From: an uncultured bacterium
GTDB taxonomy: Bacteria; Abyssobacteria; SURF-5
DNA length: 64,000 bases
Assembly (NCBI GenBank): GCA_964453435.1
Contig: CAYVQZ010000003.1
Coordinates: 24,690 to 88,689 of the forward strand
Direction of reading: 5' to 3'
Shown here: one piece after another, positions 46,642-63,638 of the stretch
Numbering within the stretch: position 1 is the first letter of the stretch
Layout: every line of letters begins with the position of its first letter
Notes under the pieces: generated by a model
Database searches by the model: none
What the model saw: only the letters and a program-made list of their open reading frames with translations
Told to the model about the DNA's origin: nothing
Translations under genes and position numbers: made by a program

Positions 46642-47700
46642 TTATTGAGCGATTTGCCGGAATTCTGCGCGCATCTTCGGCAAACTGTCGGGATAGTTTC
46701 TCTGCACAAACTCGATGAGTTTCTCTCTCACGATGCATCGGAGCTCCCAGGCGCTCGATGAATCCGAGGCGCTCACAAGAGCTCGCAGCTCCACTGTTCT
46801 TTCCGTGCTGTTCGTTACCTGCAGCACGCATACCTTGCCGTCCCACTTGTCCGAGCTTTTCACAATCTGGTGCAACTGCTCCCGTATTTCCCCGGTCGGA
46901 ACGGTATAGTCGACATAAAGAAAAACTGCGCCAAGCAGGTCGGCGGAGACGCGGGTCCAGTTCTGGAACGGTTTTTCGAGAAAATAAGTGATCGGCACGA
47001 CCAAGCGTCTCAGGTCCCAGATGCGAACAACCACATATGTGAGCGTAATTTCCTCGATTCGTCCCCACTCGTTTTCGACTATGACAACGTCATCGATACG
47101 AATGGGACCGGTCATGGCAATCTGAAAGCCGGCCAAAAGCGTCGCGATCGTTCTCTGTGCCGCAAAACCGATGATGATACCCGCAATACCCGCCGAGGCC
47201 AGGATGCTGGTACCCAGTTGCCGGACTTTGTCAAACGTCATCAAGACAACAGCCAAGGCGAGCACTCCTACCACAACCATAACCACTCTTTTCAGCATCT
47301 GAATCTGTGTATGAATTTTCCGGGCTTGAAGATTGTCTTTCACGTCGACCCTGTACTGACTGAGAATGATGTCTTCCCCAACATACGCCAGCTTGATGAT
47401 AAGCCAGGCGACGGAAAGGATCAGGACGACGCTGAACGCCTGGTTGAGAAACACCCCGATGTTGGGAGAAACCGCAACCAGCGGCAGCAAAAGGTGAATG
47501 ACAACAAGGGGGATAATCACTCGCGACGGTGCGCGACAGTGCTTTACGAATGACGTGCCGAGAGTCGACTTGGTTCTTTCCGAAACTGTCCGAAAAATTT
47601 TGAAAATAACATAGTGGGCTATCAACCCCAAAACGACTGCCACACCGAGAATAACGACCGGTCGTAACAACTCTTCCCAATCCAAGAGCAGGTCTTTCAT
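46642..47700 (-). CDS. Mechanosensitive ion channel, MscS family
   Basis: The pore helix and beta-domain block is GIIIGFAAQRTIATLLAGFQIAMTGPIRIDDVVIVENEWGRIEEITLTYVVVRIWD. Several N-terminal TM segments are present. Confidence 0.9.
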   Translation of the reverse strand: MKDLLLDWEELLRPVVILGVAVVLGLIAHYVIFKIFRTVSERTKSTLGTSFVKHCRAPSRVIIPLVVIHLLLPLVAVSPNIGVFLNQAFSVVLILSVAWLIIKLAYVGEDIILSQYRVDVKDNLQARKIHTQIQMLKRVVMVVVGVLALAVVLMTFDKVRQLGTSILASAGIAGIIIGFAAQRTIATLLAGFQIAMTGPIRIDDVVIVENEWGRIEEITLTYVVVRIWDLRRLVVPITYFLEKPFQNWTRVSADLLGAVFLYVDYTVPTGEIREQLHQIVKSSDKWDGKVCVLQVTNSTERTVELRALVSASDSSSAWELRCIVREKLIEFVQRNYPDSLPKMRAEFRQIAQ

Positions 47701-48132: not shown

Positions 48133-49425
48133 ATGAAGGCCGCATTGCGAGACGAAAACACCGCCTGTGATTGCGTTGCGGATTTCCTGTCGGCTGTGAA
48201 AATGCTTTCGAAGAAGACATACGACCTGGTTCTCACCGAGCTGAGCCTTCCGGACAGGGCCGGGCAAGAACTTGTCAAGTTGATAGCCGAGAAAAGCCCT
48301 TCCACTCAGATTCTTGTTGTCACATCTTCCGGCGATTCCCGTAAAGTCAGCGAATGCATGGAAATAGGGGCCTTCAATTATCTGCGCAAACCCTTCAAGC
48401 CCGGTCAGCTTCGGTTTCTGGCCAAGACGGCCTTCGACACGCAGCCGCCGAAAAGCGAAAACCTGTTTCTCGAGGGAAGGGAGGCCTTCAGCCAAACAGA
48501 CAACCTGGTTGGGAGAAGCCGGGCCATGCAGAAGGTATACGGACAGATACGCCTTGCGGCGAGCACCGATATTGATGTCCTCCTCACCGGGGAAAGCGGT
48601 ACGGGCAAAGAACTTGTGGCCCGCTCCATTCACCGCGAGAGCAAGCGGTGTGAGGGACCATTCATCGCGGTGAACACGGGCGCCATCGAGTCCAACCTGA
48701 TTTCCAGCGAACTGTTCGGACATGTGAGAGGCGCGTTCACCGGCGCCAGGAACACCCGGAAGGGAATGTTCGAGATGGCGCATGGCGGCACCCTGTTTCT
48801 CGATGAACTCAGCACAATGGACGAACAGACCCAGATAAGCCTTCTTCGCGTATTGGATAACAAGGTGATCACTCGCGTCGGCGGCTCCAAACCAATAAAG
48901 GTGGATGTGCGGATAATAGCCGCCTCAAATGCAATTCTGGAACAAGAGGTTGAATCCGCCCGTTTTCGGGAGGATGTGTATCATCGCCTGAACGTATTCA
49001 CGGTCCACATGCCGCCTCTGCGCAAGCGCACATCCGACATCAAGATTCTTGCCGCCGTCTTCGTCGACCAGTTTTCCCGCGAATTCAATAAGAATATCCG
49101 GGGCATTTCAGAAGAGGCGCTCGCGCTTCTGGAAAATTACGCGTGGCCCGGCAATGTGCGAGAATTGAAAAACTCGATTCAACGGGCTGTGTTGTTGGCT
49201 GAGAGCGATATGATCATTCCGTCCGTGCTGCCGGACCGGTTGCACAGGAAACGTGATGTCTCAACAGGGGTTGCGCTGAAAGTCGGGATGACATTGGAAG
49301 AGGCGGAGCGCGCTCTGATTGCGGCAACGCTTTCGCACGTGAACGGGAACAAGAAGAAGGCTTCGGAGATTTTGGGGATAAGCCGCAAGTGCATGTATAA
49401 CAAGATTAGCAAGTACGCCCTTTGA
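48133..49425 (+). CDS. Sigma-54-dependent transcriptional activator (NtrC/Fis family) with atypical receiver domain
   Basis: The AAA+ core has GESGTGKELVARSIH, GAFTGA and TLFLDE. The C-terminal Fis-type HTH has ASEILGISRKCMYNKI. The coordinate is the first canonical start, but the in-frame upstream codons (48064-48132) encode the receiver beta-1 strand ILIVDAD (see findings). Confidence 0.9.
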   Translation: MKAALRDENTACDCVADFLSAVKMLSKKTYDLVLTELSLPDRAGQELVKLIAEKSPSTQILVVTSSGDSRKVSECMEIGAFNYLRKPFKPGQLRFLAKTAFDTQPPKSENLFLEGREAFSQTDNLVGRSRAMQKVYGQIRLAASTDIDVLLTGESGTGKELVARSIHRESKRCEGPFIAVNTGAIESNLISSELFGHVRGAFTGARNTRKGMFEMAHGGTLFLDELSTMDEQTQISLLRVLDNKVITRVGGSKPIKVDVRIIAASNAILEQEVESARFREDVYHRLNVFTVHMPPLRKRTSDIKILAAVFVDQFSREFNKNIRGISEEALALLENYAWPGNVRELKNSIQRAVLLAESDMIIPSVLPDRLHRKRDVSTGVALKVGMTLEEAERALIAATLSHVNGNKKKASEILGISRKCMYNKISKYAL

Positions 49426-49704: not shown

Positions 49705-49720
49705 TGGCGCCATCCGTGCA
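49705..49720 (+). promoter_or_regulatory. Candidate sigma-54 (-24/-12) promoter
   Basis: TGGCGC-CATCC-GTGCA matches consensus TGGCAC-N5-TTGCW with correct GG/GC spacing. It lies ~98 nt upstream of the ATG at 49818 and directly downstream of the sigma-54 activator gene. Confidence 0.65.
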
Positions 49721-49817
49721 CCTTAGAGAGGGAACCTGCCATTCGAAGATTTTTTCCGTAACGGCGCACATCAAGCGCTTTGGTGTGGATTTGAGAGGAT
49801 ATTAAGGCTGGAAACGT

Positions 49818-50180
49818 ATGCCAAAGAAAATAATTCTTTTGCTCAAATCAGGAATAAAATTTGAAAACATGCTCAAGGATTACTTGAGCCAGGAGGGTTT
49901 TGAAGTTGATACCGCGGAAACCGTGGCCGAAGTCCTTTATTATCTCAAGAGGTCGCCTCATTTTCTCCTGGTCGTTGAGCAGGACACATACGAGATGGAC
50001 TGTCTGGAACTTTTTCTAAATGCTCGAGATATTCAATCGAACATCAAAGTTGTTTTCCTCGGTTCGGGTGATCCAAAAAGCAAAGACGAGATAATGAAGC
50101 TCGGAGGAATCTACCTCGATTCCCCCGTTCGGGCGGAAGTCTTCCGGGAAATCATAAACGACGTTCGTAAGGTCAAGTGA
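49818..50180 (+). CDS. Single-domain receiver-like protein with degenerate phospho-acceptor pocket
   Basis: 120 aa with CheY-like periodicity. KIILLLKSG replaces the DD pocket. FLLVVEQDTYEMDCLELFL aligns Glu with the phospho-acceptor Asp. The conserved Lys position reads LDSPV. Confidence 0.65.
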   Translation: MPKKIILLLKSGIKFENMLKDYLSQEGFEVDTAETVAEVLYYLKRSPHFLLVVEQDTYEMDCLELFLNARDIQSNIKVVFLGSGDPKSKDEIMKLGGIYLDSPVRAEVFREIINDVRKVK

Positions 50181-50280
50181 TTACCGGAAGATTGTTCGGT
50201 ATTGAGACTCGGTCTGAGTTCGCCTGGTTGGAACGTGAGGAAAAATCGGCGGAATTCAGAAACAAAGAGGAGATAAAACA

Positions 50281-50967
50281 ATGACAGAAAACGGGCTAAT
50301 CAAGGAACTCCACGCAAACGTGGTCCTCGGCCGGATAGACCGGAATGAAGATTTGTATGAGGAATTAGCCGGACGCCCCGGCGTAACCGAGTTGACCGCC
50401 CAGTGTGTGGAAAAAGGCGTGCCCACGAAACGGATTCTGGACGAGGGCCTGATCAGCGCGATGGATGAAGTCGGCGCGAAGTATGAATCGGGAGAATATT
50501 ACCTGCCGGACTTGATCGCATCGGCCGACGCCATGATAGCCGGCATGGAGATTCTCAAGCCTCTGTTACTGGAGGCTCAAATCCAATCGCGCGGCAAAGT
50601 CATCCTGGCCACCGTGGAAGGCGATGAACATGATATTGGGAAAAATCTTGTGGGCATTATGCTTCGAGCCGCCGGTTTCGAAGTAATCGATTTGGGAACG
50701 CGAGTTCCGGCGGGAGACATTGTGGAAGCGGTGGAAGAACATAAACCGAACGTGCTCGGATTGAGCGCGCTTTTGACATCCACCATGCCGCGCATGAAAG
50801 AGGTCATCGAAGCGTTGGAACGAAACAATCTCCGGAACGGCATGCGGGTGATGGTGGGCGGAGCTCCCGTTTCAAAGGAGTACGCGGATTCCATCGGAGC
50901 AGATGCATATGGAGAGGATGCGTTTGAGGCAGTAGAGCGGGCCAATGAATTGGTGGTTGTATCATGA
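50281..50967 (+). CDS. Corrinoid (B12)-binding protein, methyltransferase-cognate type
   Basis: An N-terminal helical cap is followed by a Rossmann B12 domain with the DxHxxG motif (GDEHDIGKNLV), SxL (LGLSALLTS) and GG (MVGGAPV). Confidence 0.9.
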   Translation: MTENGLIKELHANVVLGRIDRNEDLYEELAGRPGVTELTAQCVEKGVPTKRILDEGLISAMDEVGAKYESGEYYLPDLIASADAMIAGMEILKPLLLEAQIQSRGKVILATVEGDEHDIGKNLVGIMLRAAGFEVIDLGTRVPAGDIVEAVEEHKPNVLGLSALLTSTMPRMKEVIEALERNNLRNGMRVMVGGAPVSKEYADSIGADAYGEDAFEAVERANELVVVS

Positions 50968-51599
50968 TACGAACAGATGCCGACAGTTCAGGACTTGTGG
51001 TTATCGATTCGTTTGACATTCGGACCACGCCGAAATCGGTGCTCAAGAGGATGGGCAGGGGGGTCAGCGAGACCAAATGGGCAGGCGCCGTTTCAAGAGT
51101 ATTTGAACAATATTGGCCGCGAATTCAACCGCGCGGCGTGTTTCGCGTTACCATCTGCCATCCTGACGGAGATTCAATCGGCATCGGCAAAAACCTGGGC
51201 TTCAGAAGCGGATTTTTGCAGGAACGCCTCCCCTATCCGCGACTTTCGGCGATTTTTCTGGTAACCATCGGGGCTGAGTTGGAAGAAGGAATACGCGAGG
51301 AGATGCGAAAGGGCAGGAATCGCAGAGCATACATCTTGGACTGTCTCGGCTCCAACGCGGCCGAAGCGACCGCCGCGGCCATTCATCGAGCGGTCGAGGA
51401 ACAGCTTGACGTTCCAATGAGCCGATACAGCCCCGGCTATAACGATTGGGACATTGCCGAGCAACGAATTCTCTTTGATTTTCTTGGGCGGGACACGGCG
51501 AAGGAAGTGGGAGTTCGCTTGACGCACGATTTCATGATGACGCCGCAGAAGTCAGTCAGCGGCATTATCCTGCCCAGAATGGAACAAAACCCGAATTGA
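50964..51599 (+). CDS. MetH-type (vitamin B12-dependent methionine synthase) activation-domain-like protein, stand-alone
   Basis: The C-terminal block RYSPGYNDWDIAEQRILFDFLG...GVRLTHDFMMTPQKSVSGIILP matches the reactivation-domain signature as I recall it. The start overlaps the upstream stop (ATGA). Confidence 0.7.
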   Translation: MIRTDADSSGLVVIDSFDIRTTPKSVLKRMGRGVSETKWAGAVSRVFEQYWPRIQPRGVFRVTICHPDGDSIGIGKNLGFRSGFLQERLPYPRLSAIFLVTIGAELEEGIREEMRKGRNRRAYILDCLGSNAAEATAAAIHRAVEEQLDVPMSRYSPGYNDWDIAEQRILFDFLGRDTAKEVGVRLTHDFMMTPQKSVSGIILPRMEQNPN

Positions 51600-51687
51600 T
51601 TCCTATCATTCAATCCGCGTTTTCACGCTCACAGAAAACCTCGCGCAGGACGTAAGAAAAGTTGAAAGAAATGAGAGGACAGGAACT

Positions 51688-53184
51688 TTGGAACGAGCGA
51701 TTTCGAGACAGAGGTTTTTGGTAGCTGCGAGAAAAGGAATTGCAGGAGGAGCCTACAAGCCTCTGAGCGATTCCGACCTCGATAAGGTCTGCGACACCAG
51801 TTTCAGGCTCTTGGAGGAGGTCGGCGCTCTGGTGCACGAGCCCACGGCGCTCGACCTTTTCGAAAAGGCCGGGGCCAGGGTGGACCGCGCGTCCGCTGTC
51901 GTCAAGATTCCGCGCCAACTGGTGAAATCTTCCCTCAAAAGTTTACCCTCGAAGGTGACACTGTTCGGGCGAGATGAATCACACGACCTTCACCTCGAGG
52001 ATGCGCGCGTGTATGTGGGAACCGGCGGGACCGCGCTCAACGTTCTCGATTTCGGAGCCCATGAAGTTCGGCCGGCGCAACTGAGCGACCTCCGGTCCAT
52101 CTGCAAATTGGTTGACGCGCTCGACCACGTCCATTTCATCGTGATTCCCACCTATCCCAACGAGTTGGACGTCGCTTGCGTTGACGTCAATCGTTTTTTC
52201 ACGGCGTTGAGTCAAAGCTCCAAACACGTAATGGGCGGTATTTATACGCTTGAGGGTCTGCGCCAGGTCATACGCCTCGCGGAAATAATAGCCGGCGGTC
52301 CGGACGCGTTGCGAGAAAGACCGTTCATATCGGTGATCACATGTGTTATGAGTCCGCTGCGGCTTGACAGCCATTACGCGCATTTGATGATCGAGACAGC
52401 CAAGGCGGGAATACCCGTCTGTGTGCCCGCCGAGCCGCTGGCGGGCGCAACCTCGCCGATTACTCTGGCCGGCACTCTGGCGATGCAAGTTGCCGACAGC
52501 TTGGTCGGCGTCGTGTTGACACAGATAGTCAATCCGGGCACCCCGGTGATTTTCGGGTCGGTTGCCACAACGACCGACCTGCGGGACATGAAATACCTTG
52601 GGGCCTCCATCGAGAGCGGACTCTTAAACGCGGCGGGAGCCCAGGTGGCCCAGCATCTTCGGATTCCCTATTATGCGACCGCCGGAATGAGCGACGCGAA
52701 GACCATTGACGCTCAGTGCGGATACGAGGCCGCTCTCACGTTGCTGCTCACTGCGCTCTCGGGAGCCAACTACATCCACGACGCGGCCGGACTCATGGAG
52801 TTTGCGAACACGGTGAGCCTCGAGAAATACGTTATCGACGACGACATCATCGGCATGGTGATGCGGGCCGTCGAGGGGATTCGAGTGAACAAAGACACGC
52901 TGGCCTTCGACGCCATTCGAAGGGTTGGACCCGGCGGCAATTTCCTCGCGGAGCGGCACACGGCGAAACACATGAGGAAAGAGCACTACATGCCGACAGT
53001 CGCCGATCGCTCCCGGCGCGACCAGTGGCTCGCCGCAGGCACGAAAGACGCATACGCGCGAGCACACGAGAGGGCGATGCTGTTGCTCGAGTCCCACACG
53101 CCCGCGGCTCTGTCGAACGATGCCCTCTCGCGAATACGGGCAGAGTTTTCGGAAGTCCTTGCGGACGGCAACGAGGAGAGCTGA
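51688..53184 (+). CDS. MttB-family (trimethylamine methyltransferase superfamily) corrinoid methyltransferase, non-pyrrolysine, paralogue 1
   Basis: TTG start, 498 aa. The N-terminal block is LSDSDLDKVCDTSFRLLEEVGALVHEPTALDLFEKAGARVD. It also has GTGGTALNVLD and the C-terminal GPGGNFLAERHT. There is no in-frame stop. Confidence 0.85.
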   Translation: MERAISRQRFLVAARKGIAGGAYKPLSDSDLDKVCDTSFRLLEEVGALVHEPTALDLFEKAGARVDRASAVVKIPRQLVKSSLKSLPSKVTLFGRDESHDLHLEDARVYVGTGGTALNVLDFGAHEVRPAQLSDLRSICKLVDALDHVHFIVIPTYPNELDVACVDVNRFFTALSQSSKHVMGGIYTLEGLRQVIRLAEIIAGGPDALRERPFISVITCVMSPLRLDSHYAHLMIETAKAGIPVCVPAEPLAGATSPITLAGTLAMQVADSLVGVVLTQIVNPGTPVIFGSVATTTDLRDMKYLGASIESGLLNAAGAQVAQHLRIPYYATAGMSDAKTIDAQCGYEAALTLLLTALSGANYIHDAAGLMEFANTVSLEKYVIDDDIIGMVMRAVEGIRVNKDTLAFDAIRRVGPGGNFLAERHTAKHMRKEHYMPTVADRSRRDQWLAAGTKDAYARAHERAMLLLESHTPAALSNDALSRIRAEFSEVLADGNEES

Positions 53185-53994
53185 GTGATTGTTATAGGAG
53201 AGAAAATCAACGCCACGCGAAAATCCGTGAAGCACGCGTTGAAAGAGAAGAATCTGGATTTCATACGACAGCTCTGCGGCGAACAGGATTCGGCCGGAGC
53301 GGACTATATCGATGTGAACGTCGGCGCCGGCGAAGACGACGTCGACTTCGAGACAAGAACAATGGTGTGGCTTGTGAAGGCGCTCGAAGAGGTAACAGAA
53401 AAACCTCTTTGCATCGACAGCGCAAATCCGGCCGTGATCGAGGCTGGCGTGAAGGCCTGCACGCGGGCAAAGCCCATGATTAATTCAGTGAACGGAACAG
53501 ATTCGAGAATGGACGCCATCTTCCCGCTTGCCTCCGAGTGCGGATGCCCCGTCATTGCGCTCGCCATGAACGAGGAGGGAATACCGGCCACACCCGAAGA
53601 ACGCGTCTCCATTTGCAGGCAAATTCTGGAACGCGCCAGTTCGTATGAGATTCCGAACGAAAACCTCTTATTCGACCCGCTCGTGCTGCCACTGTCCACG
53701 GGAGAACAACAAGGAACGATAACTCTCGACACGATTTCCCTTCTGAAAAGCTCACTGGACGGAGTGCGAACCGTGGTGGGCCTGAGCAACATATCGTTCG
53801 GGCTGCCTCACCGCTCGCTCATCAACGGAGCGTTCCTCGTATTGGCGATCGGGCGTGGGGCCGACGCGGCGATTTTCGACCCCACGAACGCGAAACTGCT
53901 CTCGCAACTGCGGGCCGCAGAGGTGGTAGCGGGCAGTGACCGCAGATGCCGGCGCTACACCCGCGCTCACAACACCGGCCAATTGACTGATTAA
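53185..53994 (+). CDS. Pterin-binding methyltransferase (methylcorrinoid:tetrahydrofolate methyltransferase, MtgA/AcsE/MetH pterin-domain-like)
   Basis: The GTG start immediately follows the upstream TGA. Motifs are IGEKINATRKSV, DYIDVNVG, CIDSANP, INSVNG and GLSNISFGLP. Confidence 0.85.
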   Translation: MIVIGEKINATRKSVKHALKEKNLDFIRQLCGEQDSAGADYIDVNVGAGEDDVDFETRTMVWLVKALEEVTEKPLCIDSANPAVIEAGVKACTRAKPMINSVNGTDSRMDAIFPLASECGCPVIALAMNEEGIPATPEERVSICRQILERASSYEIPNENLLFDPLVLPLSTGEQQGTITLDTISLLKSSLDGVRTVVGLSNISFGLPHRSLINGAFLVLAIGRGADAAIFDPTNAKLLSQLRAAEVVAGSDRRCRRYTRAHNTGQLTD

Positions 53995-54002
53995 GGAGAA
54001 CC

Positions 54003-55535
54003 ATGAGAGGTGTTATGTCCCGAAAAATGAAGACAGAGACGATTCAAAGGCAGGGAGTTCTCGTTGACCCGTACAGACGATTGACGAGTCGACAAATCAG
54101 GGCCATACATGAGGCTTCCCTCGATATCCTTTGGGAAGTCGGAATAACGTGCAACAACCCGAGGATTATCGAGTTGTTGGCCGCGAACGGAGCGGCGATT
54201 GACAGAAAGAACGGCGAAACGGTGGCGAAGCTTCCCGCAAAGCTCGTCGCGCAAGCCGTGGAAAGTTCTCCCCGCGCCGTCGTGCTCGGCGCGCGCAACC
54301 CCGATAATCGTTTGATTCTTGATGCGCGGGAACCACGAGTGAGATTTGGCACAGGCTCGGAGACGAATATATGGCTGAGCCTGGAATGGGAGAACAACAC
54401 TATCCCCGGCTTCCGCGAGCATCGGGGAACTCTCGAGCGACTCTGCAAGTCCGCCCGTTTGTGCGACCACTTGGAGTCGGTCGATTTTTTCATCCGGAAC
54501 GTGAACATTCAAGACGAGAACATAGACGATGATAACAAGGATGTCAACGTCTTCTTTGGCAGCCTCAGCAATATAACCAAGCATGTAATGGCAGGTATTA
54601 ATAATGTGGAAAAACTGGCGGACGTGGTTCGAATGGCCGAACTCATAACAGGCGGCGCCGATGCTTTTCGGGCCAACCCGATTATTTCTTTCATCACCTG
54701 CGTCATCAAGAGTCCGTTGCAGTTGGTCGATGACACGGCGGACAAGTTGGTGGCGATAGCCGAGCGGGGCATACCGCTTGTTATCTCTTCGTCTCCCCAG
54801 GGCGGCGCAACGGGGCCGATTGACGAGGGGGACATGGTCGCGATGATTAACGCCGAAATCCTTGCCGGCGTCCTCCTTGCCCAGCTTGTCCGGCCGGCGG
54901 CGCCGGTGCTGTATGGCGCTGTGCCCGCGCGAGCGCGAATGGACACCCTGCACAACATGTATGGAGCGCCCGAGACGAACCAGTACAACATTGACTGCGT
55001 TCAGATGGCGCGATTCTACGATATTCCGTGCTATTCGACCGCCGGGGTGAGCGACGCCGCGATACCGGGCATTCAAACGACGATGGAGAAGATGTTGTCC
55101 CATCTGAGCGTAACGATGAGCGGACCCCAGTACCTGCACTATGCCTTCGGCCTGCTCGACAAAACCAACATCTTCTGTCCGGCGCAGGCAGTGCTCGACG
55201 ACGCGCACATCGCAGCGGTCAAGCATTTCTGCCGCAAGCCGGAAATAACCAAAACAAGCCTGAACAAAGGCGTCGCTCAGCTCAAACAGGTGATGGATTC
55301 CTCTCACAAACTTTTCGCGAGATACGCCCGGAAGGGAATGCGGTCAGGCGCTATCTCCCGACCCTACCCGTTCGAAGCCGCCGCGCTCGAGGACACGACA
55401 CTGTTCCAGGCCGATTCCGTCGCGCGCGAACTGATGGAAAAGACCGTGGAACCGATTCCCGACGATGTCGTGGAGAGAATCTTCGCGGCGCTCCCGGGAA
55501 TCGTGTCCCAACTGAAGCCGGCGCTGAGAGAATGA
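54003..55535 (+). CDS. MttB-family corrinoid methyltransferase, non-pyrrolysine, paralogue 2
   Basis: AAGGAG RBS, 510 aa. It is collinear with paralogue 1 (IRAIHEASLDILWEVGITCNNPRIIELLAANGAAID; STAGVSDA) but only ~30% identical by eye. Confidence 0.85.
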   Translation: MRGVMSRKMKTETIQRQGVLVDPYRRLTSRQIRAIHEASLDILWEVGITCNNPRIIELLAANGAAIDRKNGETVAKLPAKLVAQAVESSPRAVVLGARNPDNRLILDAREPRVRFGTGSETNIWLSLEWENNTIPGFREHRGTLERLCKSARLCDHLESVDFFIRNVNIQDENIDDDNKDVNVFFGSLSNITKHVMAGINNVEKLADVVRMAELITGGADAFRANPIISFITCVIKSPLQLVDDTADKLVAIAERGIPLVISSSPQGGATGPIDEGDMVAMINAEILAGVLLAQLVRPAAPVLYGAVPARARMDTLHNMYGAPETNQYNIDCVQMARFYDIPCYSTAGVSDAAIPGIQTTMEKMLSHLSVTMSGPQYLHYAFGLLDKTNIFCPAQAVLDDAHIAAVKHFCRKPEITKTSLNKGVAQLKQVMDSSHKLFARYARKGMRSGAISRPYPFEAAALEDTTLFQADSVARELMEKTVEPIPDDVVERIFAALPGIVSQLKPALRE

Positions 55536-56803
55536 GTGGTGATTCCATGGATTCCGGTTCCGCATACACCGAAGCCGTCAACACGGGTCAGTACCAGAAA
55601 GACCAGGGCCTGGTTAAAAAGTACGACAACGTCCGCATCTACTGGGAAGATGAAATAACGCGACATTTTGTTCGCCCGCACATCGAGCGGATGACGATGG
55701 AAAAAGAGCAGCGCCTCGAGCGGTTGCGGATTCTCGATTTGGGATGCGGCAGCGGTGACGGGTTCGAGTTGCTCAAAGGCGTTCGCCGGAAAGACAACAA
55801 TCTCACGACACAGGAGATCTACGCCATCAACGGCGAAGACCTCGGCCTCTATCTCGGGTTGGACAACAATGCGGCCCTTATTGAACAGGCAAAACAGGTC
55901 CACGGGAGTAATCGCAAGCTCGACTTCGTTCAGGGCGACTTCTCAGAACTCACGAAAACCGTGAAGGATTACGGACCCTTCGACCTTTTCTTCAGCTCGT
56001 ACGGAACGATGTCTCATTGCACTGATGAACAGTTTGTCGAGCTAATGGTACAGATCGCCGAACTGTGCGGAGACTATGGGCTGGTCGTGTGCGATTGGCT
56101 CGGGCGCTACGTGTACGCGTGGCAGAACCTGTGGGACAGCGACCTTTCGCAAAGCCAATTCATGGATTACCGTATTTCCTATATCTACCCGGATGACATG
56201 AGGGACAAACTGCAAATAGAGAGTTTCCCGCTCAAGCTCATGAGCCCCGATGAGGTCCACCGGCTTATCGAGAAGGCAAACGAGAAAGCGGAAAAGCAAT
56301 TCGACCTGCTCAGGCTTGCGGACCGCTCCATCTTTGTCAGTCGCCATATGGACACCGGCGACTATAACAGTAGCTGCCAGCCGATACGGCGCCGCGTTAA
56401 TTCGCTGCATGAAGACTTTCTCCGCACGCCGCTCGAACAATTGATTATCGACTATTATCCAAAGCCCGGATTCGCCGAGGTCAACTCCTACCTCGAACGG
56501 CTTCAAATAAGCTGGAACACGCTGGTGAAATACACGATGTTTCTTTTGGACAATTACGACCGCGACACCGAGACGTTTCGAGAGGACAAACCCCTTTCCG
56601 GCGATTACCCCCGGGTGCTCGCGAAAAATATGCAGGAAATGAAAAAGGTAATCCAGGGCACCGGATGGATACAGACCGGCGACGTGAGGGCGAACATCAT
56701 CGAGCCGCAGCTTGGCTATGCTCTCAGGCAGCTCGAGATCGAGTTGCAGGAAGGACTGGGTGTGGGCCATGGCCTGGTTGCGATACTGGAAGTCCACAAG
56801 TAA
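55532..56803 (+). CDS. Large class I SAM-dependent methyltransferase-like protein (423 aa), function unknown
   Basis: The ATG at 55532 overlaps the MttB-2 stop (ATGA). Motif I is LRILDLGCGSGDGFELL, post-I is LGLDNN, motif II is DFVQGDF, and motif III is FDLFFSSYGTMSHC. The ~200 aa C-terminal region is not recognised. The track ORF start at 55028 lies inside MttB-2 and is rejected. Confidence 0.75.
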   Translation: MSGDSMDSGSAYTEAVNTGQYQKDQGLVKKYDNVRIYWEDEITRHFVRPHIERMTMEKEQRLERLRILDLGCGSGDGFELLKGVRRKDNNLTTQEIYAINGEDLGLYLGLDNNAALIEQAKQVHGSNRKLDFVQGDFSELTKTVKDYGPFDLFFSSYGTMSHCTDEQFVELMVQIAELCGDYGLVVCDWLGRYVYAWQNLWDSDLSQSQFMDYRISYIYPDDMRDKLQIESFPLKLMSPDEVHRLIEKANEKAEKQFDLLRLADRSIFVSRHMDTGDYNSSCQPIRRRVNSLHEDFLRTPLEQLIIDYYPKPGFAEVNSYLERLQISWNTLVKYTMFLLDNYDRDTETFREDKPLSGDYPRVLAKNMQEMKKVIQGTGWIQTGDVRANIIEPQLGYALRQLEIELQEGLGVGHGLVAILEVHK

Positions 56804-56818
56804 CCCCTTTTTCCATTC

Positions 56819-57985
56819 ATGATAGAACTGAAAGACGTTTCAAAGGTCTATCCTGACAATCAGCCCGCCGTAAAGAACTTCTCTCTCACCGTGGCAGACG
56901 GAGAGACCGTCGTTCTCATCGGCTCGAGCGGATGCGGGAAGACAACGACACTGAAAATGATCAACAGGCTCATCGAGCCCACCTCCGGCGAGATATATAT
57001 CAACGCAGAAAACATACTCAAGCTGAGCCCCGTTGCCCTGCGTCGCGACATCGGTTACGTCATCCAGCAGATCGGACTGTTCCCGCACATGACAATCAGA
57101 GAAAACGTCGAAATCGTGCCATCCCTTCTGGGCTGGCCGGAAGACCGCCGCCGCAGCCGCTCCCACGAGTTGATGAGCCTTGTGGGCCTGGCGCCCGACG
57201 TGTACTCCGACCGCTTCCCCCATGAGTTAAGTGGCGGACAGCAGCAACGGGTGGGGGTCGCCAGGGCGCTTGCGGCCGACCCGCCGACTCTCCTGATGGA
57301 CGAGCCGTTCGGCGCGCTGGACCCGATCACCCGGCGCGACATCCAGGAGGAATTTCAAACTCTGAAACGGGAAATCAAAAAGACAATCGTCTTTGTCACT
57401 CACGACATTATTGAAGCGGTGACTCTCGGAGACCGAATCGCGGTCATGAATAAGGGGAAATTGATTCAGTTGGGGTCCGCACACGAAATACTGTCTCATC
57501 CCGCCAATCCGATGGTCGAAAAAATCATCGGCCACCAGCGGTTTCAGCTCACCTTGAGCTCGGAGAACATCGAGACAGCGGCGGACACCGACATCGCGAC
57601 GGTCTCGGCAAAATTCCTTGAAAAACCGGTGGAAGACGCGCGTAATCTTATGAGAAAACGCCGGACCGGGATATTGCCCGTAGTTGACGAACAAGAACGG
57701 GTAGTCGGTGTGTTGACGGATGAACGCTTGTCGCGCGCGAATGAGAACGAAACCCTCAACGAGGTGATTCAGCCGCCTCCGCACACAATCGATAGCGACA
57801 CCAGCCTCCTTACGGCGCTCAATCTGATGATTGAAAAAGACGTGCAGATGTCCGTGCTGGTAAACAGGGATGGAAAGTTCGGGGGAATTCTGTCACGAAA
57901 GAGCCTGCTCGGAACAATCGCAAACTTATTCGATGCCGAGGGCTCGGACAGCGCCAAAACGAAGAGAGTTACGGGGAAACCATGA
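56819..57985 (+). CDS. Osmoprotectant (betaine/choline/carnitine-type) ABC transporter ATP-binding protein with C-terminal tandem CBS domains
   Basis: Walker A is GSSGCGKTT, signature is LSGGQQQRV, and Walker B is LLMDEPFGALD. The ~130 aa C-terminal CBS-like region has ILPVVDEQERVVGVLTDE and VLVNRDGKFGGILSR. Confidence 0.9.
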   Translation: MIELKDVSKVYPDNQPAVKNFSLTVADGETVVLIGSSGCGKTTTLKMINRLIEPTSGEIYINAENILKLSPVALRRDIGYVIQQIGLFPHMTIRENVEIVPSLLGWPEDRRRSRSHELMSLVGLAPDVYSDRFPHELSGGQQQRVGVARALAADPPTLLMDEPFGALDPITRRDIQEEFQTLKREIKKTIVFVTHDIIEAVTLGDRIAVMNKGKLIQLGSAHEILSHPANPMVEKIIGHQRFQLTLSSENIETAADTDIATVSAKFLEKPVEDARNLMRKRRTGILPVVDEQERVVGVLTDERLSRANENETLNEVIQPPPHTIDSDTSLLTALNLMIEKDVQMSVLVNRDGKFGGILSRKSLLGTIANLFDAEGSDSAKTKRVTGKP

Positions 57986-59523
57986 CCGAGTATTTCGAGT
58001 TTTTTCTATCCCGTTCGCCGGAAATCGCCTGGCTCACGGTCGAGCACATACGGATAACCCTGGTCTCGGTGGCGCTGGCGGTGCTGCTCGGCGTGCCGAC
58101 CGGAATCATCCTCGTGAGAATCCGGCGGCTGGCCACGCCTGTCATTGGGGCGACGAGCGTAATCCAGACGATTCCGAGCCTCGCCCTTCTCGGTTTCATG
58201 ATTCCCTTGCTCGGAATCGGCGTCAAACCGGCCATCGTGGCGCTGTTTCTTTACGCTCTGCTGCCAATAGTCAGAAACACATATACGGGGGTCGACCAGG
58301 TGGACCCGGCGCTGATAGAGGCCGGCATCGGGATGGGAATGACGAACCGTCAAATGCTGCGGAGGGTGCAAATTCCGCTTTCATTGCCCGTGATAATGGC
58401 GGGAGTCAGAACCTCGACAGTCATCAATGTGGGCGTAGCCACGCTGTGCGCGCTCATCGGCGCCGGCGGGCTTGGCGAGCTTATCTTCCGCGGAATCGCG
58501 ATGGTGAACAGCCAGATGATTATTGCGGGAGCCCTGCCGGCCGCCCTCTTGGCGCTCGTTTTCGACGGAGTACTCGGACTCATCGAGAAAGGGCTCATGG
58601 CGAGGAAACGCTTTTCGCCGAAGCTCCTGGCGGGTGTCGGTTTCTCGAGCTTGCTCTTCCTCGCGGCTCTTATCCCGTCCGAGTACGCGAAAAAAGATGC
58701 GCGGAAAATCACAATCGGGTCCAAGGAATTCACCGAACAAATTATCCTGGGTGAGATCATGGCCCAGTTGATTGAATCAAACACCGACGTGTCCGTGACC
58801 AGAAAGTTCGGACTGGGCGGCACTATGGTCTGTTTCAACGCCTTGACAAATGGCGACATCGACGTGTATCCCGAATACACCGGCACCGGCTTGACGGCGA
58901 TCCTGGCCCGGCAGGCAATCTCGGACCCGAAAGAGGTGTTTCGTATCGTAAGCGAGGAGTTCGAGCGCGAATACAACCTGGTCTGGCTGAGTCCGTTCGG
59001 TTTTAACAACACGTATGCGCTCGCCATGAGAGAACAACACGCCGAAAAGCTCGGAATCGAGAAAATAAGCGATTTGGCCGGGCATGGGCAAAGACTGCGG
59101 CCGGGCTTCACCCAGGAATTCCTCGAACGGCCCGACGGGTATCCGGGCCTCAGGCGGCATTACGGTCTGGCCTTCGCCCGCGAACCCAAGGGAATGGACC
59201 CCGGAATCATGTATATCGCGCTCAGGGAAAGAGATGTCGATCTTATTTGTGCATTCGCCACGGACGGGCGCATTCCGGCTTTCAACTTGCGGGTTCTCGA
59301 GGATGACAAGCACTATTTTCCTCCGTATTATGCAGCCCCCCTCGTGCGCGGGGAGACGCTTGCTCGCATCCCCGAACTGAGCGGCGTTTTGGGCAAGCTG
59401 GCCGGCCTCATCGACGACGCAAAGATGGCCGAACTGAATTATGAGGTGGACGAGCAGGGACGGTCGCCCGAGGCGGTCGCTTCCGCCTTTCTCCAAGAGG
59501 CGGGGTTGACCACAAACGGATGA
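57982..59523 (+). CDS. Osmoprotectant ABC transporter, fused permease and substrate-binding protein (OpuB/C/F-type)
   Basis: The N-terminal ~210 aa permease has IQTIPSLALLGFMIPLLGIG and EAGIGMGMT. The C-terminal OpuAC-like binding domain has ITIGSKEFTEQIILGEI and DIDVYPEYTGTGL. The start overlaps the ATPase stop (ATGA). Confidence 0.9.
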   Translation: MTEYFEFFLSRSPEIAWLTVEHIRITLVSVALAVLLGVPTGIILVRIRRLATPVIGATSVIQTIPSLALLGFMIPLLGIGVKPAIVALFLYALLPIVRNTYTGVDQVDPALIEAGIGMGMTNRQMLRRVQIPLSLPVIMAGVRTSTVINVGVATLCALIGAGGLGELIFRGIAMVNSQMIIAGALPAALLALVFDGVLGLIEKGLMARKRFSPKLLAGVGFSSLLFLAALIPSEYAKKDARKITIGSKEFTEQIILGEIMAQLIESNTDVSVTRKFGLGGTMVCFNALTNGDIDVYPEYTGTGLTAILARQAISDPKEVFRIVSEEFEREYNLVWLSPFGFNNTYALAMREQHAEKLGIEKISDLAGHGQRLRPGFTQEFLERPDGYPGLRRHYGLAFAREPKGMDPGIMYIALRERDVDLICAFATDGRIPAFNLRVLEDDKHYFPPYYAAPLVRGETLARIPELSGVLGKLAGLIDDAKMAELNYEVDEQGRSPEAVASAFLQEAGLTTNG

Positions 59524-62738: not shown

Positions 62739-63638
62739 GTGATTGAATCTCACATTATGGCTTACATCGTCATTGTATCCGCTGTCGGCGTCATCGTGAT
62801 TTGGTGGCTGCGCCGAACCATAACCATGGTCGAGGAGCAGCGGCGGAAGCGACTGCAAACGCTGAATCGCTTCGACGCAGCCGTGCACACGGAATCTCCG
62901 CATGAGAATCCCCTCATCCAGGCGCGCAAGCTGGCGCTCGAAAGCCTCAGCAGCCGCTTCAGTATTCTCAGGCGTTTGCTCATTCCGGCGGTCTTCCTGC
63001 TCTGGCTCGTCGCGCTCGCTTACCCCTTCCTCGGGAACGTGCCTGCAAACGTCGTGTCGCTCATGGTGGCGGCCGCCACGGTGATCGTCGGTATCGCCGC
63101 GAAACCCTATGTCGAGAATCTTATCTCCGGAATCGTCATATCGTTTTCGCGCCTTGTGCGCATCGGCGACACCCTGCTGATTGATGGCAATTATGGAACC
63201 GTCGAAGACATCACCATCACGCACACGCTCGTGAAGATATGGGACTGGAGACGGTACATCATTCCGAACTCGCGCATGCTCGAAAAAGAATTCATCAATT
63301 ACTCCATCGTCGACACATACCAGTGGGCGTACGTCGAGTTCTGGGTGGATCATGACGCGGACATCGAGCGGGTCCGGGAGATTGCCGTACGGGCCGCGTC
63401 CTCGAGCGACCATTTCGCAAATTATGAGGCTCCCCGGTTCTGGCTCATGGAGATGGGCAAAGAGGGAATAAAGTGCTGGGTGGCGGCATGGGCGCAATCG
63501 CCCGCAGACGCCTGGCTGCTCAAAAACGAGATTCGCACCGAACTGGTTCGAGAATTGGCACAGGCCGGAATTCGGACCCATACCTATCGGATAGATGGCT
63601 TGGAGGCTTTGAAGGACACTATGGAACCGCGGAAGTGA
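62739..63638 (+). CDS. Mechanosensitive ion channel, small MscS family
   Basis: GIAAKPYVENLISGIVISFSRLVRIGDTLLIDGNYGTVEDITITHTLVKIWDWRRYIIPNS. Length is 299 aa with N-terminal TM segments. Confidence 0.9.
   Translation: MIESHIMAYIVIVSAVGVIVIWWLRRTITMVEEQRRKRLQTLNRFDAAVHTESPHENPLIQARKLALESLSSRFSILRRLLIPAVFLLWLVALAYPFLGNVPANVVSLMVAAATVIVGIAAKPYVENLISGIVISFSRLVRIGDTLLIDGNYGTVEDITITHTLVKIWDWRRYIIPNSRMLEKEFINYSIVDTYQWAYVEFWVDHDADIERVREIAVRAASSSDHFANYEAPRFWLMEMGKEGIKCWVAAWAQSPADAWLLKNEIRTELVRELAQAGIRTHTYRIDGLEALKDTMEPRK

What the first reader, a model, noticed from the sequence alone, without database searches (positions are those of the whole stretch)
49705..56803. MetH-like modular corrinoid methyl-transfer operon built on two divergent non-pyrrolysine MttB paralogues, with a MetH-type reactivation protein instead of RamA
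Seen in sequence: seven co-directional, translationally coupled genes follow a sigma-54 promoter. The couplings are ATGA at 50964, TGA-GTG at 53182 and ATGA at 55532. The genes are a pseudo-receiver, a corrinoid protein (DEHDIG / SxL / GG), a stand-alone MetH-activation-like protein (RYSPGYNDW...KSVSGI), MttB-1, a pterin-binding methyltransferase (GLSNISFG), MttB-2, and a 423-aa SAM-methyltransferase-like protein. Both MttB ORFs are uninterrupted, with no in-frame TAG. Established knowledge: non-Pyl MttB members are quaternary-amine:corrinoid methyltransferases (MtgB glycine betaine, MtpB proline betaine, MtcB carnitine, MtyB gamma-butyrobetaine). The characterised systems are reactivated by RamA-type ATP-dependent activases. 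A separate reactivation polypeptide of the MetH type is known for the split MetH of Thermotoga maritima. Inference: the operon looks like MetH with its homocysteine module swapped for MttB, so methyl would flow from substrate to Co to tetrahydrofolate, with SAM-dependent rather than ATP-dependent corrinoid repair. The two paralogues are only ~30% identical by eye, which implies two different and unknown methyl donors. This component set and sigma-54 control do not match the described Mtg/Mtp/Mtc operons as I know them.
Basis: partly seen in the sequence, partly recalled or inferred. Interest (0 to 1): 0.75.

Follow-up and report, generated by a model that had tools for sequence, protein, structure and literature searches.

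The report
Paired MttB corrinoid methyl-transfer osmolyte cassette
This stretch holds one copy of a widespread, apparently undescribed gene set of sediment bacteria: two vitamin-B12-type amine methyltransferases, a methionine-synthase-style repair protein and a SAM-dependent methyltransferase sit among salt-stress genes, probably to build (less likely to break down) a betaine-like osmolyte.

Summary
All seven genes, the three start/stop couplings, the quoted motifs and the two uninterrupted MttB ORFs are present. The 211-aa protein is a true MetH activation-domain fold of the stand-alone Thermotoga TM0269 type. No RamA-like gene lies in the window or recurs in about 105 related loci. The sigma-54 site is only a two-mismatch match, no better than chance.

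The interpretation needs revision. The operon runs on through an OpuA-type betaine ABC transporter and two asparagine-synthase paralogues. The two MttB paralogues are an ancient, co-conserved pair. The 423-aa SAM methyltransferase is the pair's dedicated partner: in 52 of 52 informative metagenome loci an MttB gene lies directly upstream of it. Neighbours are osmostress and SAM-cycle genes (MscS, Trk, OpuA, MetK, AhcY, AsnB, ProA). Both paralogues lack the betaine-binding residues of MtgB and relatives. Both carry an invariant His where Pyl-MttB has its proton-shuttle Tyr.

My best reading (about 0.4) is a hybrid N-methylation pathway. Methyl-THF passes via the corrinoid protein and the two MttB enzymes to an amine, and SAM supplies the final methyl, giving a compatible solute. 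Catabolic demethylation remains a serious rival. I found no description of this cassette in the searchable literature.

The parts
48133..49425 (+). Sigma-54 enhancer-binding activator (receiver-AAA+-HTH_8). The receiver is N-terminally truncated and has Glu at the phospho-acceptor position.
   Evidence: Pfam Sigma54_activat 222.8 bits, HTH_8 and Response_reg 66 bits starting at profile position 15. D57->E in the alignment to CheY.
49705..49720 (+). Sigma-54-like -24/-12 element TGGCGCcatccGTGCA. Plausible but not established.
   Evidence: 2 mismatches to the consensus. 21 such sites in the window against 26.7 expected. Position only: intergenic, 98 nt upstream of 49818.
49818..50180 (+). Stand-alone pseudo-receiver (120 aa).
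   Evidence: Response_reg 19.3 bits, below the cut-off of 30.2. All five signature residues are replaced. A 117-aa counterpart sits in the same place on a JGI contig.
50281..50967 (+). Corrinoid protein (B12 cap plus B12-binding domain, with DEHDIG, SxL and GG motifs).
   Evidence: Pfam B12-binding 108.9 and B12-binding_2 59.6 bits. NCBIfam MtgC models score 205 and 183 bits, below their cut-offs of 370 and 310.
50964..51599 (+). Stand-alone MetH activation (AdoMet-binding) protein of the TM0269 type. Proposed SAM-dependent reductive remethylation of Co(II).
   Evidence: Met_synt_B12 41.4 bits. Best PDB sequence hit is 1J6R/TM0269, E 1.6e-6 over residues 41-202. RYSPGY (the RxxxGY motif) and PxKSVSG are invariant in the family. 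AF2 model pLDDT 91.5. The top 19 PDB fold hits are all MetH activation domains, TM0269 first with TM 0.74/0.79, followed by a cliff to E 0.07.
51688..53184 (+). MttB1: non-Pyl MttB-family TIM-barrel methyltransferase, with Met at the Pyl position.
   Evidence: MTTB 349.7 bits. 32% identical to MtgB and 34% to Pyl-MttB. Lacks MtgB Y97, R312, H348 and F356. Invariant GTGGT, Y329, H364-D365 and E249 in 69 sequences.
53185..53994 (+). Methyl-tetrahydrofolate:corrinoid methyltransferase (pterin-binding barrel, with the GLSNISFG motif).
   Evidence: Pterin_bind 97.8 bits. NF005719 302.6 bits, above the cut-off of 259.
54003..55535 (+). MttB2: divergent non-Pyl MttB paralogue, with Val at the Pyl position. 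Always paired with MttB1-type genes.
   Evidence: MTTB 191.3 bits. 33% identical to MttB1 and 25% to MtgB, but 52% to the second MttB of type II cassettes. 112 near-invariant positions in 70 sequences, including H379, E120, E275 and Y344.
55532..56803 (+). 423-aa class I SAM-dependent methyltransferase with a 220-aa C-terminal domain of unknown fold family. Translationally coupled to MttB2.
   Evidence: Methyltransf_25/31. At least 1648 homologues at about 50% identity. SAM motif I LDLGCGSGDG is invariant. An MttB gene lies within 2.3 kb upstream in 52 of 52 loci. Only generic class I fold matches and no PDB sequence relative.
56819..57985 (+). OpuA/ProV-type ABC ATPase with tandem CBS domains.
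   Evidence: TIGR01186 proV 379.6 bits, above the cut-off of 326.6. ABC_tran plus CBS.
57982..59523 (+). Fused permease and OpuAC substrate-binding domain (betaine/choline-type ABC transporter).
   Evidence: OpuAC 235.4 bits and BPD_transp_1 70.3 bits. ATGA overlap with the ATPase gene.
59561..61051 (+). AsnB-like adenylating enzyme that lacks the N-terminal catalytic Cys (begins MSG...). The PP-loop SGGVDSS is intact.
   Evidence: Asn_synthase 211.8 bits. AsnB equivalog model 416.7 bits, below the cut-off of 499. Ser or Ala replaces Cys1 in orthologues next to other cassettes.
61205..62686 (+). Canonical glutamine-hydrolysing asparagine synthase B (begins (M)CGIAG).
   Evidence: NF006949 603.1 bits, above the cut-off of 499.
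62739..63638 (+). MscS-type mechanosensitive channel (osmostress context).
   Evidence: MS_channel_2nd 58.3 bits and MS_channel_3rd 31.4 bits.
46642..47700 (-). Second MscS-type channel, on the other flank.
   Evidence: MS_channel_2nd 47.4 bits.

Best explanation
Shown. The locus is one member of a widespread cassette. Its core is an ancient pair of non-pyrrolysine MttB paralogues (B1 and B2) plus a dedicated roughly 420-aa SAM methyltransferase.
- In 'type I' cassettes, as here, the core comes with a corrinoid protein, a methyl-THF:corrinoid methyltransferase and a TM0269-type MetH activation protein.
- The cassette sits among osmostress genes: an OpuA-type transporter, MscS, Trk and trehalose synthesis.
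- It also travels with anabolic genes: an AsnB pair or ProA plus a carboxylate-amine ligase, and sometimes MetK and AhcY.

Inferred mechanism. The cassette makes an N-methylated, betaine-type compatible solute by a hybrid route.
1. The pterin-binding protein loads methyl from methyl-THF onto Co(I) of the corrinoid protein, as in MetH.
2. B1 and B2 pass it to the amino group of an amine precursor in two successive N-methylations (primary to secondary to tertiary). These steps need acid/base residues but no pyrrolysine.
3. The SAM methyltransferase adds the last, thermodynamically uphill methyl to give the quaternary ammonium.
4. When the cobalt is oxidised to Co(II), the activation protein restores methyl-Co(III) with SAM and a low-potential electron donor, as TM0269 does for TM0268.
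5. The AsnB-type enzymes (or ProA and the ligase elsewhere) supply or amidate the backbone. The ABC system imports or recaptures betaines. The MscS channels vent them.

The identity of the amine is unknown.
For: - Cassette conservation. 25 of the 80 best TM0269-like loci in species genomes carry ACT-B1-MeTr-B2-CORR, with B1 at 51-59% and B2 at 48-53% identity to the window. They come from Dehalococcoidia, Thermodesulfobacteriota, Fibrobacterota, Eubacteriales and others.
- Pair and methyltransferase. In 52 of 52 metagenome loci with enough upstream DNA, an MttB gene lies within 2.3 kb upstream of the SAM methyltransferase. 41 loci are type I and 27 type II. B1 matches the first and B2 the second MttB of type II cassettes (45% and 52% identity).
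- Coupling. ATGA overlap between MttB2 and the methyltransferase.
- Anabolic and osmotic company. MetK and AhcY follow the cassette in L086, L087, L099 and L149. MscS and TrkAH flank it. ProA passes its equivalog cut-off at 530 bits, with a YbdK-type ligase beside it. AsnB and a Cys-less AsnB-like enzyme are present here. Here the transporter is OpuA-type with CBS domains, two MscS genes flank the operon, and TreS-Mak/GlgE lie upstream.
- Active sites. Both paralogues lack MtgB's Y97, R312, H348 and F356. R312 is the acid-group clamp kept in MtcB, MtpB, MthB and MtyB (PMC13080624). The corrin-contacting Gly-Thr peptide is kept. Tyr364, the proton shuttle of Pyl-MttB (PMC9842639), is an invariant His in both, followed by an invariant Asp in B1. 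Met249 is Glu in B1.
- Repair. A MetH-type protein is present instead of the RamA/RamM used by characterised catabolic systems (PMC6855144).
- Thermodynamics, from established tables recalled from memory. Methylamine methyls are about 23 kJ/mol poorer than methanol, and methanol to methyl-pterin is about neutral. So methyl-THF to amine is downhill, while quaternisation is uphill and needs SAM. That gives two cheap steps plus one SAM step, matching two MttB enzymes plus one SAM methyltransferase.
Against: - Every characterised MttB-family enzyme is a demethylase that loads, not unloads, the corrinoid.
- Adjacent betaine importers and MarR regulators are also typical of catabolic operons.
- Type II cassettes have no corrinoid protein or methyl-THF methyltransferase nearby.
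- Several Dehalococcoidia cassettes lack the SAM methyltransferase, and two carry a third MttB instead. The 'three methyltransferases for three methyls' pattern is therefore not universal.
- No product, precursor or direction has been measured.
- The thermodynamic figures come from memory, not from a tool.
Confidence: 0.4

Rival explanations
1. Catabolic demethylation. Imported quaternary amines are demethylated by MttB1 and MttB2 onto the corrinoid protein and then to THF. Repair is SAM-dependent. The SAM methyltransferase and AsnB genes are co-located for unrelated reasons.
For: - All characterised family members work this way (PMC13080624, PMC12155760, PMC6855144).
- An OpuA-type importer is in the operon.
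- MarR regulators are common in relatives.
- Many carriers are sediment anaerobes that could oxidise or fix methyl-THF.
Against: - It does not explain the invariable, translationally coupled SAM methyltransferase. It also does not explain MetK/AhcY, ProA or the AsnB pair in the same operons.
- Both paralogues lack the acid-group clamp R312 and the aromatic pair used for glycine betaine.
- It does not explain why the two paralogues are co-inherited as a fixed pair.
Confidence: 0.25
2. Methyl harvesting. The MttB/corrinoid/THF module strips methyl groups from imported betaines to make methyl-THF. A methionine synthase encoded elsewhere, with MetK and AhcY, turns this into SAM for the 423-aa methyltransferase. 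Methyl groups thus move from an external betaine to a different endogenous product.
For: It keeps the known direction of MttB enzymes while also explaining the importer, the SAM methyltransferase and the MetK/AhcY neighbours.
Against: - It needs a methionine synthase that is not in any cassette.
- It is energetically roundabout.
- It does not explain the active-site His/Asp/Glu signature or the missing betaine-binding residues.
Confidence: 0.15
3. Nitrogen scavenging from methylated amines. Stepwise demethylation releases ammonia. The Cys-less, ammonia-dependent AsnB-like enzyme (or the carboxylate-amine ligase) assimilates it, under NtrC-type sigma-54 control.
For: A sigma-54 activator lies beside the operon here and in a few type II loci. 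The AsnB-like enzyme lacks the glutaminase nucleophile.
Against: - Most relatives use MarR.
- The sigma-54 site is chance-level.
- Demethylating non-quaternary amines to THF is uphill (established thermodynamics, from memory).
- The SAM methyltransferase and MetK/AhcY are left unexplained.
Confidence: 0.07
4. A split methionine synthase in which one MttB paralogue replaces the homocysteine-binding barrel, closing the SAM cycle beside MetK and AhcY.
For: The cassette holds three of the four MetH modules: pterin barrel, B12 domain and activation domain. It sometimes sits next to MetK and AhcY.
Against: - Neither paralogue has a conserved Cys/His zinc site of the kind used by thiol methyltransferases. 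B1 has no invariant Cys. The two invariant Cys of B2 do not form a recognisable triad.
- Type II cassettes keep the pair without the MetH-like modules.
Confidence: 0.04

Closest known systems
MtgB/MtgC/MtgA glycine betaine:THF methyltransferase system (Desulfitobacterium hafniense; archaeal version in Methanolobus vulcani)
   Same: An MttB-family TIM barrel without pyrrolysine, a cognate corrinoid protein and a pterin-binding methyl-corrinoid:THF methyltransferase, with a betaine transporter nearby. MtgB is the best PDB match of MttB1 (276 bits).
   Different: - Only 32% (B1) and 25% (B2) identity to MtgB.
- All four glycine-betaine-binding residues are absent.
- Two fixed paralogues instead of one enzyme.
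- A MetH-type activation protein instead of RamA/RamM.
- A dedicated SAM methyltransferase and AsnB-type genes.
MthB/MthC/MthA/MthK phosphocholine system of Eubacterium limosum (PMC12155760)
   Same: It is a precedent for an MttB system that needs an accessory, ATP-using enzyme acting on the small-molecule substrate, encoded in the same cluster.
   Different: The accessory enzyme there is a choline kinase, and MthB keeps the acid-group clamp R312. Here the accessories are a SAM methyltransferase and AsnB-like or GCS2-type ligases, and the clamp is Tyr.
Split cobalamin-dependent methionine synthase TM0268 + TM0269 of Thermotoga maritima (and MetH in general)
   Same: A stand-alone activation protein with the TM0269 fold and the RxxxGY AdoMet motif, a pterin-binding barrel and a B12 domain. 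About 45 of the 80 closest activation-protein loci are ordinary split-MetH arrangements.
   Different: There is no homocysteine-binding module. Two MttB barrels take its place. The methyl acceptor (or donor) is an unknown amine rather than homocysteine.
Pyrrolysine-dependent MttB/MttC/RamA trimethylamine system of methanogens
   Same: The family and fold are shared. The Gly-Thr peptide that contacts the corrin ring and Tyr329 are conserved.
   Different: Pyl334 is Met/Ile (B1) or Val (B2). Tyr364 is His. Met249 is Glu in B1. There is no RamA and no methyl-CoM branch.
SAM-only glycine betaine synthesis (GSMT/SDMT), known from Methanohalophilus, Halorhodospira and cyanobacteria
   Same: A salt-stress context and a class I SAM N-methyltransferase candidate. 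That such clusters carry neighbouring MetK/AhcY genes is recalled from memory. GSMT structures are the top Foldseek hits of the 423-aa protein.
   Different: - It has an extra C-terminal domain.
- There is one SAM enzyme, not two.
- The corrinoid machinery has no counterpart in those pathways.

Membership tests
MttB superfamily (PF06253 / COG5598) | A significant match to the family profile over the whole TIM barrel. | tested here: met
   MttB1 scores 349.7 bits over residues 22-484. MttB2 scores 191.3 bits over residues 21-437. The cut-off is 25.
MttB superfamily (PF06253 / COG5598) | The corrin-contacting Gly-Thr peptide (Gly110-Thr111 of M. barkeri MttB). | tested here: met
   The motifs GTGGT (B1) and G[TS]GSET (B2) are near-invariant in 69 and 70 sequences. 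The role of the peptide is taken from PMC9842639.
Pyrrolysine-type trimethylamine methyltransferase (TIGR02369) | An in-frame UAG/pyrrolysine at position 334 and a score above the equivalog cut-off. | tested here: not met
   No internal stop codons. Met or Val sits at the Pyl column. Scores of 451.6 and 252.2 bits are below the cut-off of 525.
MtgB glycine betaine methyltransferase | The glycine-betaine-binding residues Y97, F356 (cation-pi) and R312, H348 (carboxylate). | tested here: not met
   In B1 these are Gly/Thr, Ala, Tyr and Asp. In B2 they are Ser/Thr, Thr/Asn, Tyr and Tyr/Cys. The replacements are conserved across orthologues. The residues are defined in PMC13080624.
Acid-group quaternary-amine methyltransferases (MtcB, MtpB, MtyB, MthB) | A conserved Arg equivalent to MtgB R312 that binds the substrate's acidic group. 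| tested here: not met
   Invariant Tyr at this column in both paralogue groups. I could not obtain sequences of these four enzymes, so no phylogeny with them was made.
MetH activation domain / TM0269-type reactivation protein | The sequence family, the fold and the RxxxGY AdoMet-binding motif. | tested here: met
   PF02965 scores 41.4 bits, above the cut-off of 25. 1J6R matches at E 1.6e-6. R154-Y-S-P-G-Y159 is invariant. The top 19 fold hits are all MetH activation domains, with TM 0.74/0.79 to TM0269.
MetH activation domain / TM0269-type reactivation protein | SAM- and reductant-dependent conversion of Co(II) to methyl-Co(III) on the partner corrinoid protein. | not testable with these tools
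   This needs purified proteins and UV-visible spectroscopy.
RamA / RACo ATP-dependent corrinoid activase | The presence of such a gene in the transcription unit or the neighbourhood. | tested here: not met
   No such domain in 40 window ORFs (TreS-Mak and GlgE). No 500-650-aa family recurs in 27 + 79 related loci. The rest of the genome could not be searched.
Methylotrophic corrinoid protein (TIGR02370-type) | A B12 cap plus Rossmann B12 domain with DxHxxG, SxL and GG motifs. | tested here: met
   Pfam B12-binding_2 and B12-binding. The motifs DEHDIG, SAL and GG are in the translation. TIGR02370 scores 198 bits, just below its cut-off of 215.
Sigma-54-dependent promoter | A GG-N10-GC element close to the consensus, placed upstream of the operon, with a cognate activator. 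| tested here: inconclusive
   A two-mismatch site at chance frequency. An activator gene is adjacent. Relatives do not share it.
Glycine/sarcosine/dimethylglycine N-methyltransferases | Sequence-family membership or a specific structural match including the substrate lid. | tested here: not met
   [not shown]
Asparagine synthase B | An N-terminal catalytic Cys and a score above the equivalog cut-off. | tested here: met
   Met for 61205-62686: CGIAG start, 603 bits against a cut-off of 499. Not met for 59561-61051: MSG start, 417 bits, below 499.

The most novel reading that the evidence does not exclude
MttB-family corrinoid methyltransferases run here in the biosynthetic direction. Two paralogues use methyl-THF-derived methyl-cobalamin to N-methylate an amine twice. 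A dedicated SAM methyltransferase then performs the uphill quaternisation. This would give energy-limited anaerobes a cheap, previously unknown route to a betaine-type compatible solute, with MetH-style SAM-dependent repair of the cobalt.
Probability: 0.4. Interest if true: 0.9.

Novelty: new variant of a known kind. Interest (0 to 1): 0.75.

Why it matters
- Annotation practice. Non-pyrrolysine MttB genes are among the most abundant unexplained methyltransferase genes in sediment and marine metagenomes. They are routinely read as trimethylamine or glycine betaine catabolism, and have even been proposed as methyl sources for mercury methylation (PMC12484752).
- A defined target. This cassette marks out a large, coherent subset of those genes with a fixed partner set. 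That makes the function directly testable.
- If the biosynthetic reading is right. It would be the first MttB-type enzyme used to methylate rather than demethylate. It would be a new, ATP-sparing route to compatible solutes in anaerobes. Many environmental 'methylotrophy' annotations would need re-reading.
- If the catabolic reading is right. It would still be the first MttB system repaired by a MetH-type, SAM-dependent activation protein instead of an ATP-dependent RamA.

Tried and rejected
- MtgB-like glycine betaine specificity for MttB1. Rejected because all four binding residues are replaced.
- Recent lineage-specific duplication of MttB. Rejected because both paralogues have separate orthologue groups across phyla.
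- Hidden pyrrolysine codons. None found.
- RamA just outside the operon. Not found in the window or as a recurrent neighbour.
- A zinc/thiol site that would make an MttB paralogue a homocysteine methyltransferase. No conserved Cys/His triad.
- Conservation of the sigma-54 element in relatives. Not found. L002 has a sigma-70-like promoter, and part of its upstream region is masked with N.
- Taxonomic assignment of the window. The cluster look-up returned no names.
- Phylogeny with MtpB, MtcB, MtyB and MthB. Not possible, because I could not obtain their sequences with these tools. Only MtgB and MttB could be rebuilt, from PDB alignments.
- Literature. Seven full-text searches found no paper linking MttB systems with a MetH-type activation protein or describing this cassette. 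Subscription-only papers are not covered.

Full report
**1. Observation**

Pfam and NCBIfam identify them as follows:
- A weak, sub-threshold receiver (19.3 bits).
- A corrinoid protein (B12-binding 108.9 bits, B12-binding_2 59.6 bits).
- A Met_synt_B12 protein (41.4 bits, residues 154-204 only).
- MttB1 (349.7 bits).
- A pterin-binding methyltransferase. It scores 97.8 bits on Pterin_bind and 302.6 bits on NF005719 'methyltetrahydrofolate:corrinoid/iron-sulfur protein methyltransferase', above the cut-off.
- MttB2 (191.3 bits).
- A class I SAM methyltransferase.

The junctions ATGA at 50964, TGAGTG at 53182 and ATGA at 55532 are real. Neither MttB ORF has an internal stop. The paralogues are 33% identical.

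The receiver has lost all five signature residues. The adjacent sigma-54 activator has a truncated receiver with Glu at the phospho-acceptor site.

The sigma-54 'promoter' is a two-mismatch match. Such matches are no more frequent in the window than in shuffles: 21 found against 26.7 expected. It is plausible by position only.

**2. Extent and surroundings**

The co-directional, tightly spaced genes do not stop at 56803. The following genes come next:
- An OpuA/ProV-type ATPase with CBS domains.
- A fused permease and OpuAC-binding protein, joined to the ATPase gene by a fourth ATGA overlap.
- An AsnB-like enzyme whose N-terminal Cys is replaced by Ser.
- A canonical AsnB.
- An MscS channel.

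Upstream on the other strand lie another MscS, GlgE, a TreS-maltokinase fusion and more glucan/trehalose genes.

No terminator-like site stands out between the genes.

None of 40 window ORFs has a RamA/RACo or flavodoxin domain (for TreS-Mak and GlgE).

**3. The activation protein**

- Its best solved relative by sequence is TM0269, the separate reactivation partner of Thermotoga MetH (E 1.6e-6, 160 residues).
- The RxxxGY AdoMet motif (RYSPGY) and PxKSVSG are invariant in its family.
- An AlphaFold model (pLDDT 91.5) matches only MetH activation domains. There are 19 hits, TM0269 first at TM 0.74/0.79. The next hit is at E 0.07.

The activity itself is inferred.

**4. Comparative genomics changes the picture**

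*Scan with the activation-protein family.* I scanned one genome per species with this family and mapped the window's proteins onto the 80 best loci.
- 25 loci carry the same block: ACT-MttB1-MeTr-MttB2-CORR. They come from Dehalococcoidia, other Chloroflexota, Thermodesulfobacteriota, Bacteriovoracaceae, Fibrobacterota, Eubacteriales and unclassified lineages.
- About 45 loci are ordinary split-MetH arrangements.
- Three loci (L080, L081, L085) pair the activation protein with a different MttB.

*The 423-aa methyltransferase.* It belongs to a very large family. The protein collection holds at least 1648 homologues, and the listed ones are about 50% identical across phyla. The mean column identity is 62%.

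*Metagenome scan with that family.* This gave 80 loci.
- In all 52 with at least 2.2 kb of upstream DNA, an MttB gene lies just upstream.
- Type I (41 loci) reads [MarR]-ACT-B1-MeTr-B2-CORR-MT, usually followed by AsnB-type genes.
- Type II (27 loci) has the MttB pair and the methyltransferase but no corrinoid protein, MeTr or ACT nearby. It often carries ProA (530 bits, above its equivalog cut-off), a YbdK/GCS2 carboxylate-amine ligase, sometimes an SDR or a DUF362-ferredoxin, and an OpuA-type transporter.

*Orthology.* B1 is 45% identical to the first type II MttB. B2 is 52% identical to the second. The pair is therefore ancient.

*SAM-cycle neighbours.* In Desulfoferrobacter-type contigs the operon continues MT-AsnB-AsnB-like-MetK-AhcY and is flanked by MscS and TrkAH. 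MetK and/or AhcY recur in L099, L140, L149 and L161.

*Other recurrent families.* No RamA-sized family recurs.

*The window's variant.* The window differs in having the corrinoid gene first and a sigma-54 activator plus pseudo-receiver in place of MarR. The closest relatives, L003/L006 and a JGI contig, share the transporter and the Cys-less AsnB-like gene.

**5. Active sites**

I rebuilt the MtgB and M. barkeri MttB sequences from PDB alignments and aligned them with about 70 orthologues of each paralogue.

MtgB's glycine-betaine-binding residues are Y97, F356, R312 and H348 (PMC13080624). All are replaced in both groups. R312 is reported to be conserved in MtcB, MtpB, MthB and MtyB as the clamp for the substrate's acidic group. 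Here it is an invariant Tyr, as in Pyl-MttB.

| Position in reference | B1 | B2 |
|---|---|---|
| Pyl334 (MttB) | Met/Ile | Val |
| Gly-Thr peptide that hydrogen-bonds the corrin (PMC9842639) | kept | kept |
| Tyr364, proposed proton shuttle (MttB) | invariant His, followed by invariant Asp | invariant His |
| Met249, which gates the cobalt face (MttB) | Glu | not mapped |

There is no conserved Cys/His zinc triad.

My inference is that both enzymes still dock a corrinoid. Their pockets are not those of the known betaine demethylases, and they carry acid/base residues. Such residues are needed only for amines that bear N-H.

**6. Mechanism**

Any explanation has to cover four facts:
- a fixed pair of MttB enzymes;
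- a translationally coupled SAM methyltransferase;
- recurrent ATP-dependent amide-forming or amino-acid biosynthetic enzymes;
- SAM-cycle and osmostress neighbours.

*Preferred reading (about 0.4): three successive N-methylations of an amine.* The first two are driven by methyl-THF through the corrinoid protein (MeTr, then B1 and B2). The last is driven by SAM.

Standard free-energy tables for methanogenic substrates, recalled from memory and not computed here, put methylamine methyl groups about 23 kJ/mol below methanol. Methanol to methyl-pterin is near zero. So methyl-THF to amine is downhill. Only the tertiary-to-quaternary step needs SAM's potential.

MetH-type repair fits a MetH-like flow of methyl, and it regenerates the on-pathway methyl-Co(III).

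The backbone is unknown. Glycine is the simplest candidate. The AsnB pair or ProA plus ligase hint at an Asp/Asn- or Glu-derived, possibly amidated, solute.

*Weaknesses of this reading:*
- Every characterised family member is a demethylase.
- Type II cassettes lack the corrinoid module.
- Several Dehalococcoidia cassettes lack the SAM methyltransferase, and two have a third MttB.
- The methyltransferase's acceptor cannot be read from its fold.

*Rivals:*
- Methyl harvesting from imported betaines for SAM-dependent synthesis (0.15).
- Nitrogen scavenging (0.07).
- An MttB-for-homocysteine-barrel methionine synthase (0.04).

**7. Comparison with known systems**

The locus works like a MetH-style three-component corrinoid system and contains MttB-family members. 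It fails the tests for MtgB, for the acid-group betaine methyltransferases and for Pyl-MttB. It uses a TM0269-type protein where the characterised systems use RamA/RamM (PMC6855144).

The phosphocholine system MthBCA-MthK (PMC12155760) is the nearest precedent for an accessory small-molecule-modifying enzyme in an MttB cluster.

**8. Novelty**

Seven full-text searches found no description of an MttB system with a MetH-type activation protein. They also found no description of the MttB-pair/420-aa methyltransferase cassette. Subscription literature is not covered.

All parts belong to known families. The combination, its breadth and its likely role are new, so I rate it a new variant of a known kind. 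There is a substantial chance, about 0.4, of a pathway that would be new in kind.

**9. Limits**

- No direction, substrate or product is measured.
- Contexts come from fragmentary metagenome contigs.
- Genome-wide absence of RamA could not be checked.

Noticed in passing
L080, L081, L085 (Neomarinimicrobiota, Calditrichaceae and Phycisphaeraceae genomes): A different arrangement: MttB (about 30% identical to MttB1), then a TM0269-like activation protein, then a corrinoid protein, with no second MttB and no MeTr. MetH-type repair of MttB systems may therefore be more general than this cassette.
   Followed up: no
L088, L089, L126, L138, L142, L151, L153 (type II cassettes): A bona fide ProA sits next to a YbdK/GCS2 carboxylate-amine ligase, sometimes with an SDR, in place of ProB. 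Some loci have a DUF362-4Fe4S protein inserted between the two MttB genes.
   Followed up: partly
window 3803-6058 (-), 9452-11692, 11874-14135, 14226-16625 (+): Four paralogous 750-800-aa sulfatases. The sulfatase domain fills only the C-terminal half, and about 310 N-terminal residues match no Pfam family.
   Followed up: no
window 30470-46529 (-): A long glucan/trehalose block: GH77 4-alpha-glucanotransferase, several alpha-amylase-family enzymes, GH57-DUF3536, a branching enzyme, a TreS-maltokinase fusion and GlgE. It abuts the MscS gene and the cassette, consistent with an osmoadaptation island.
   Followed up: partly
window 16973-16988 (-): The only perfect sigma-54 consensus in the window (TGGCACGAGGTTTGCA). 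It lies inside the pseudouridine-synthase ORF 16687-17430 (-), with no obvious gene downstream of it.
   Followed up: no
window 19568-22638 (-): A small class I methyltransferase, a flavin amine-oxidase-like protein and a DUF362 protein lie in a row. DUF362 also occurs fused to a ferredoxin inside type II cassettes.
   Followed up: no
window 25340-26833 (+): A B12-binding radical SAM protein, unrelated in position to the cassette.
   Followed up: no
L002 13052-13798 (Hydrogenedentota chromosome CP070779): In the closest complete-genome relative, MttB2 is truncated to about 170-250 aa. The SAM methyltransferase, transporter and AsnB genes are absent, which suggests decay of the cassette. Part of the upstream region is masked with N.
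   Followed up: partly
L015 15970-17436 and L020 17607-19106: A third MttB paralogue with a second corrinoid protein follows the cassette in two loci that lack the SAM methyltransferase. Its pocket residues differ from B1, B2 and MtgB.
   Followed up: partly
L165 5899-6477 (-), plus two further loci of the same gene family: A DUF1638 protein recurs near type I cassettes.
   Followed up: no
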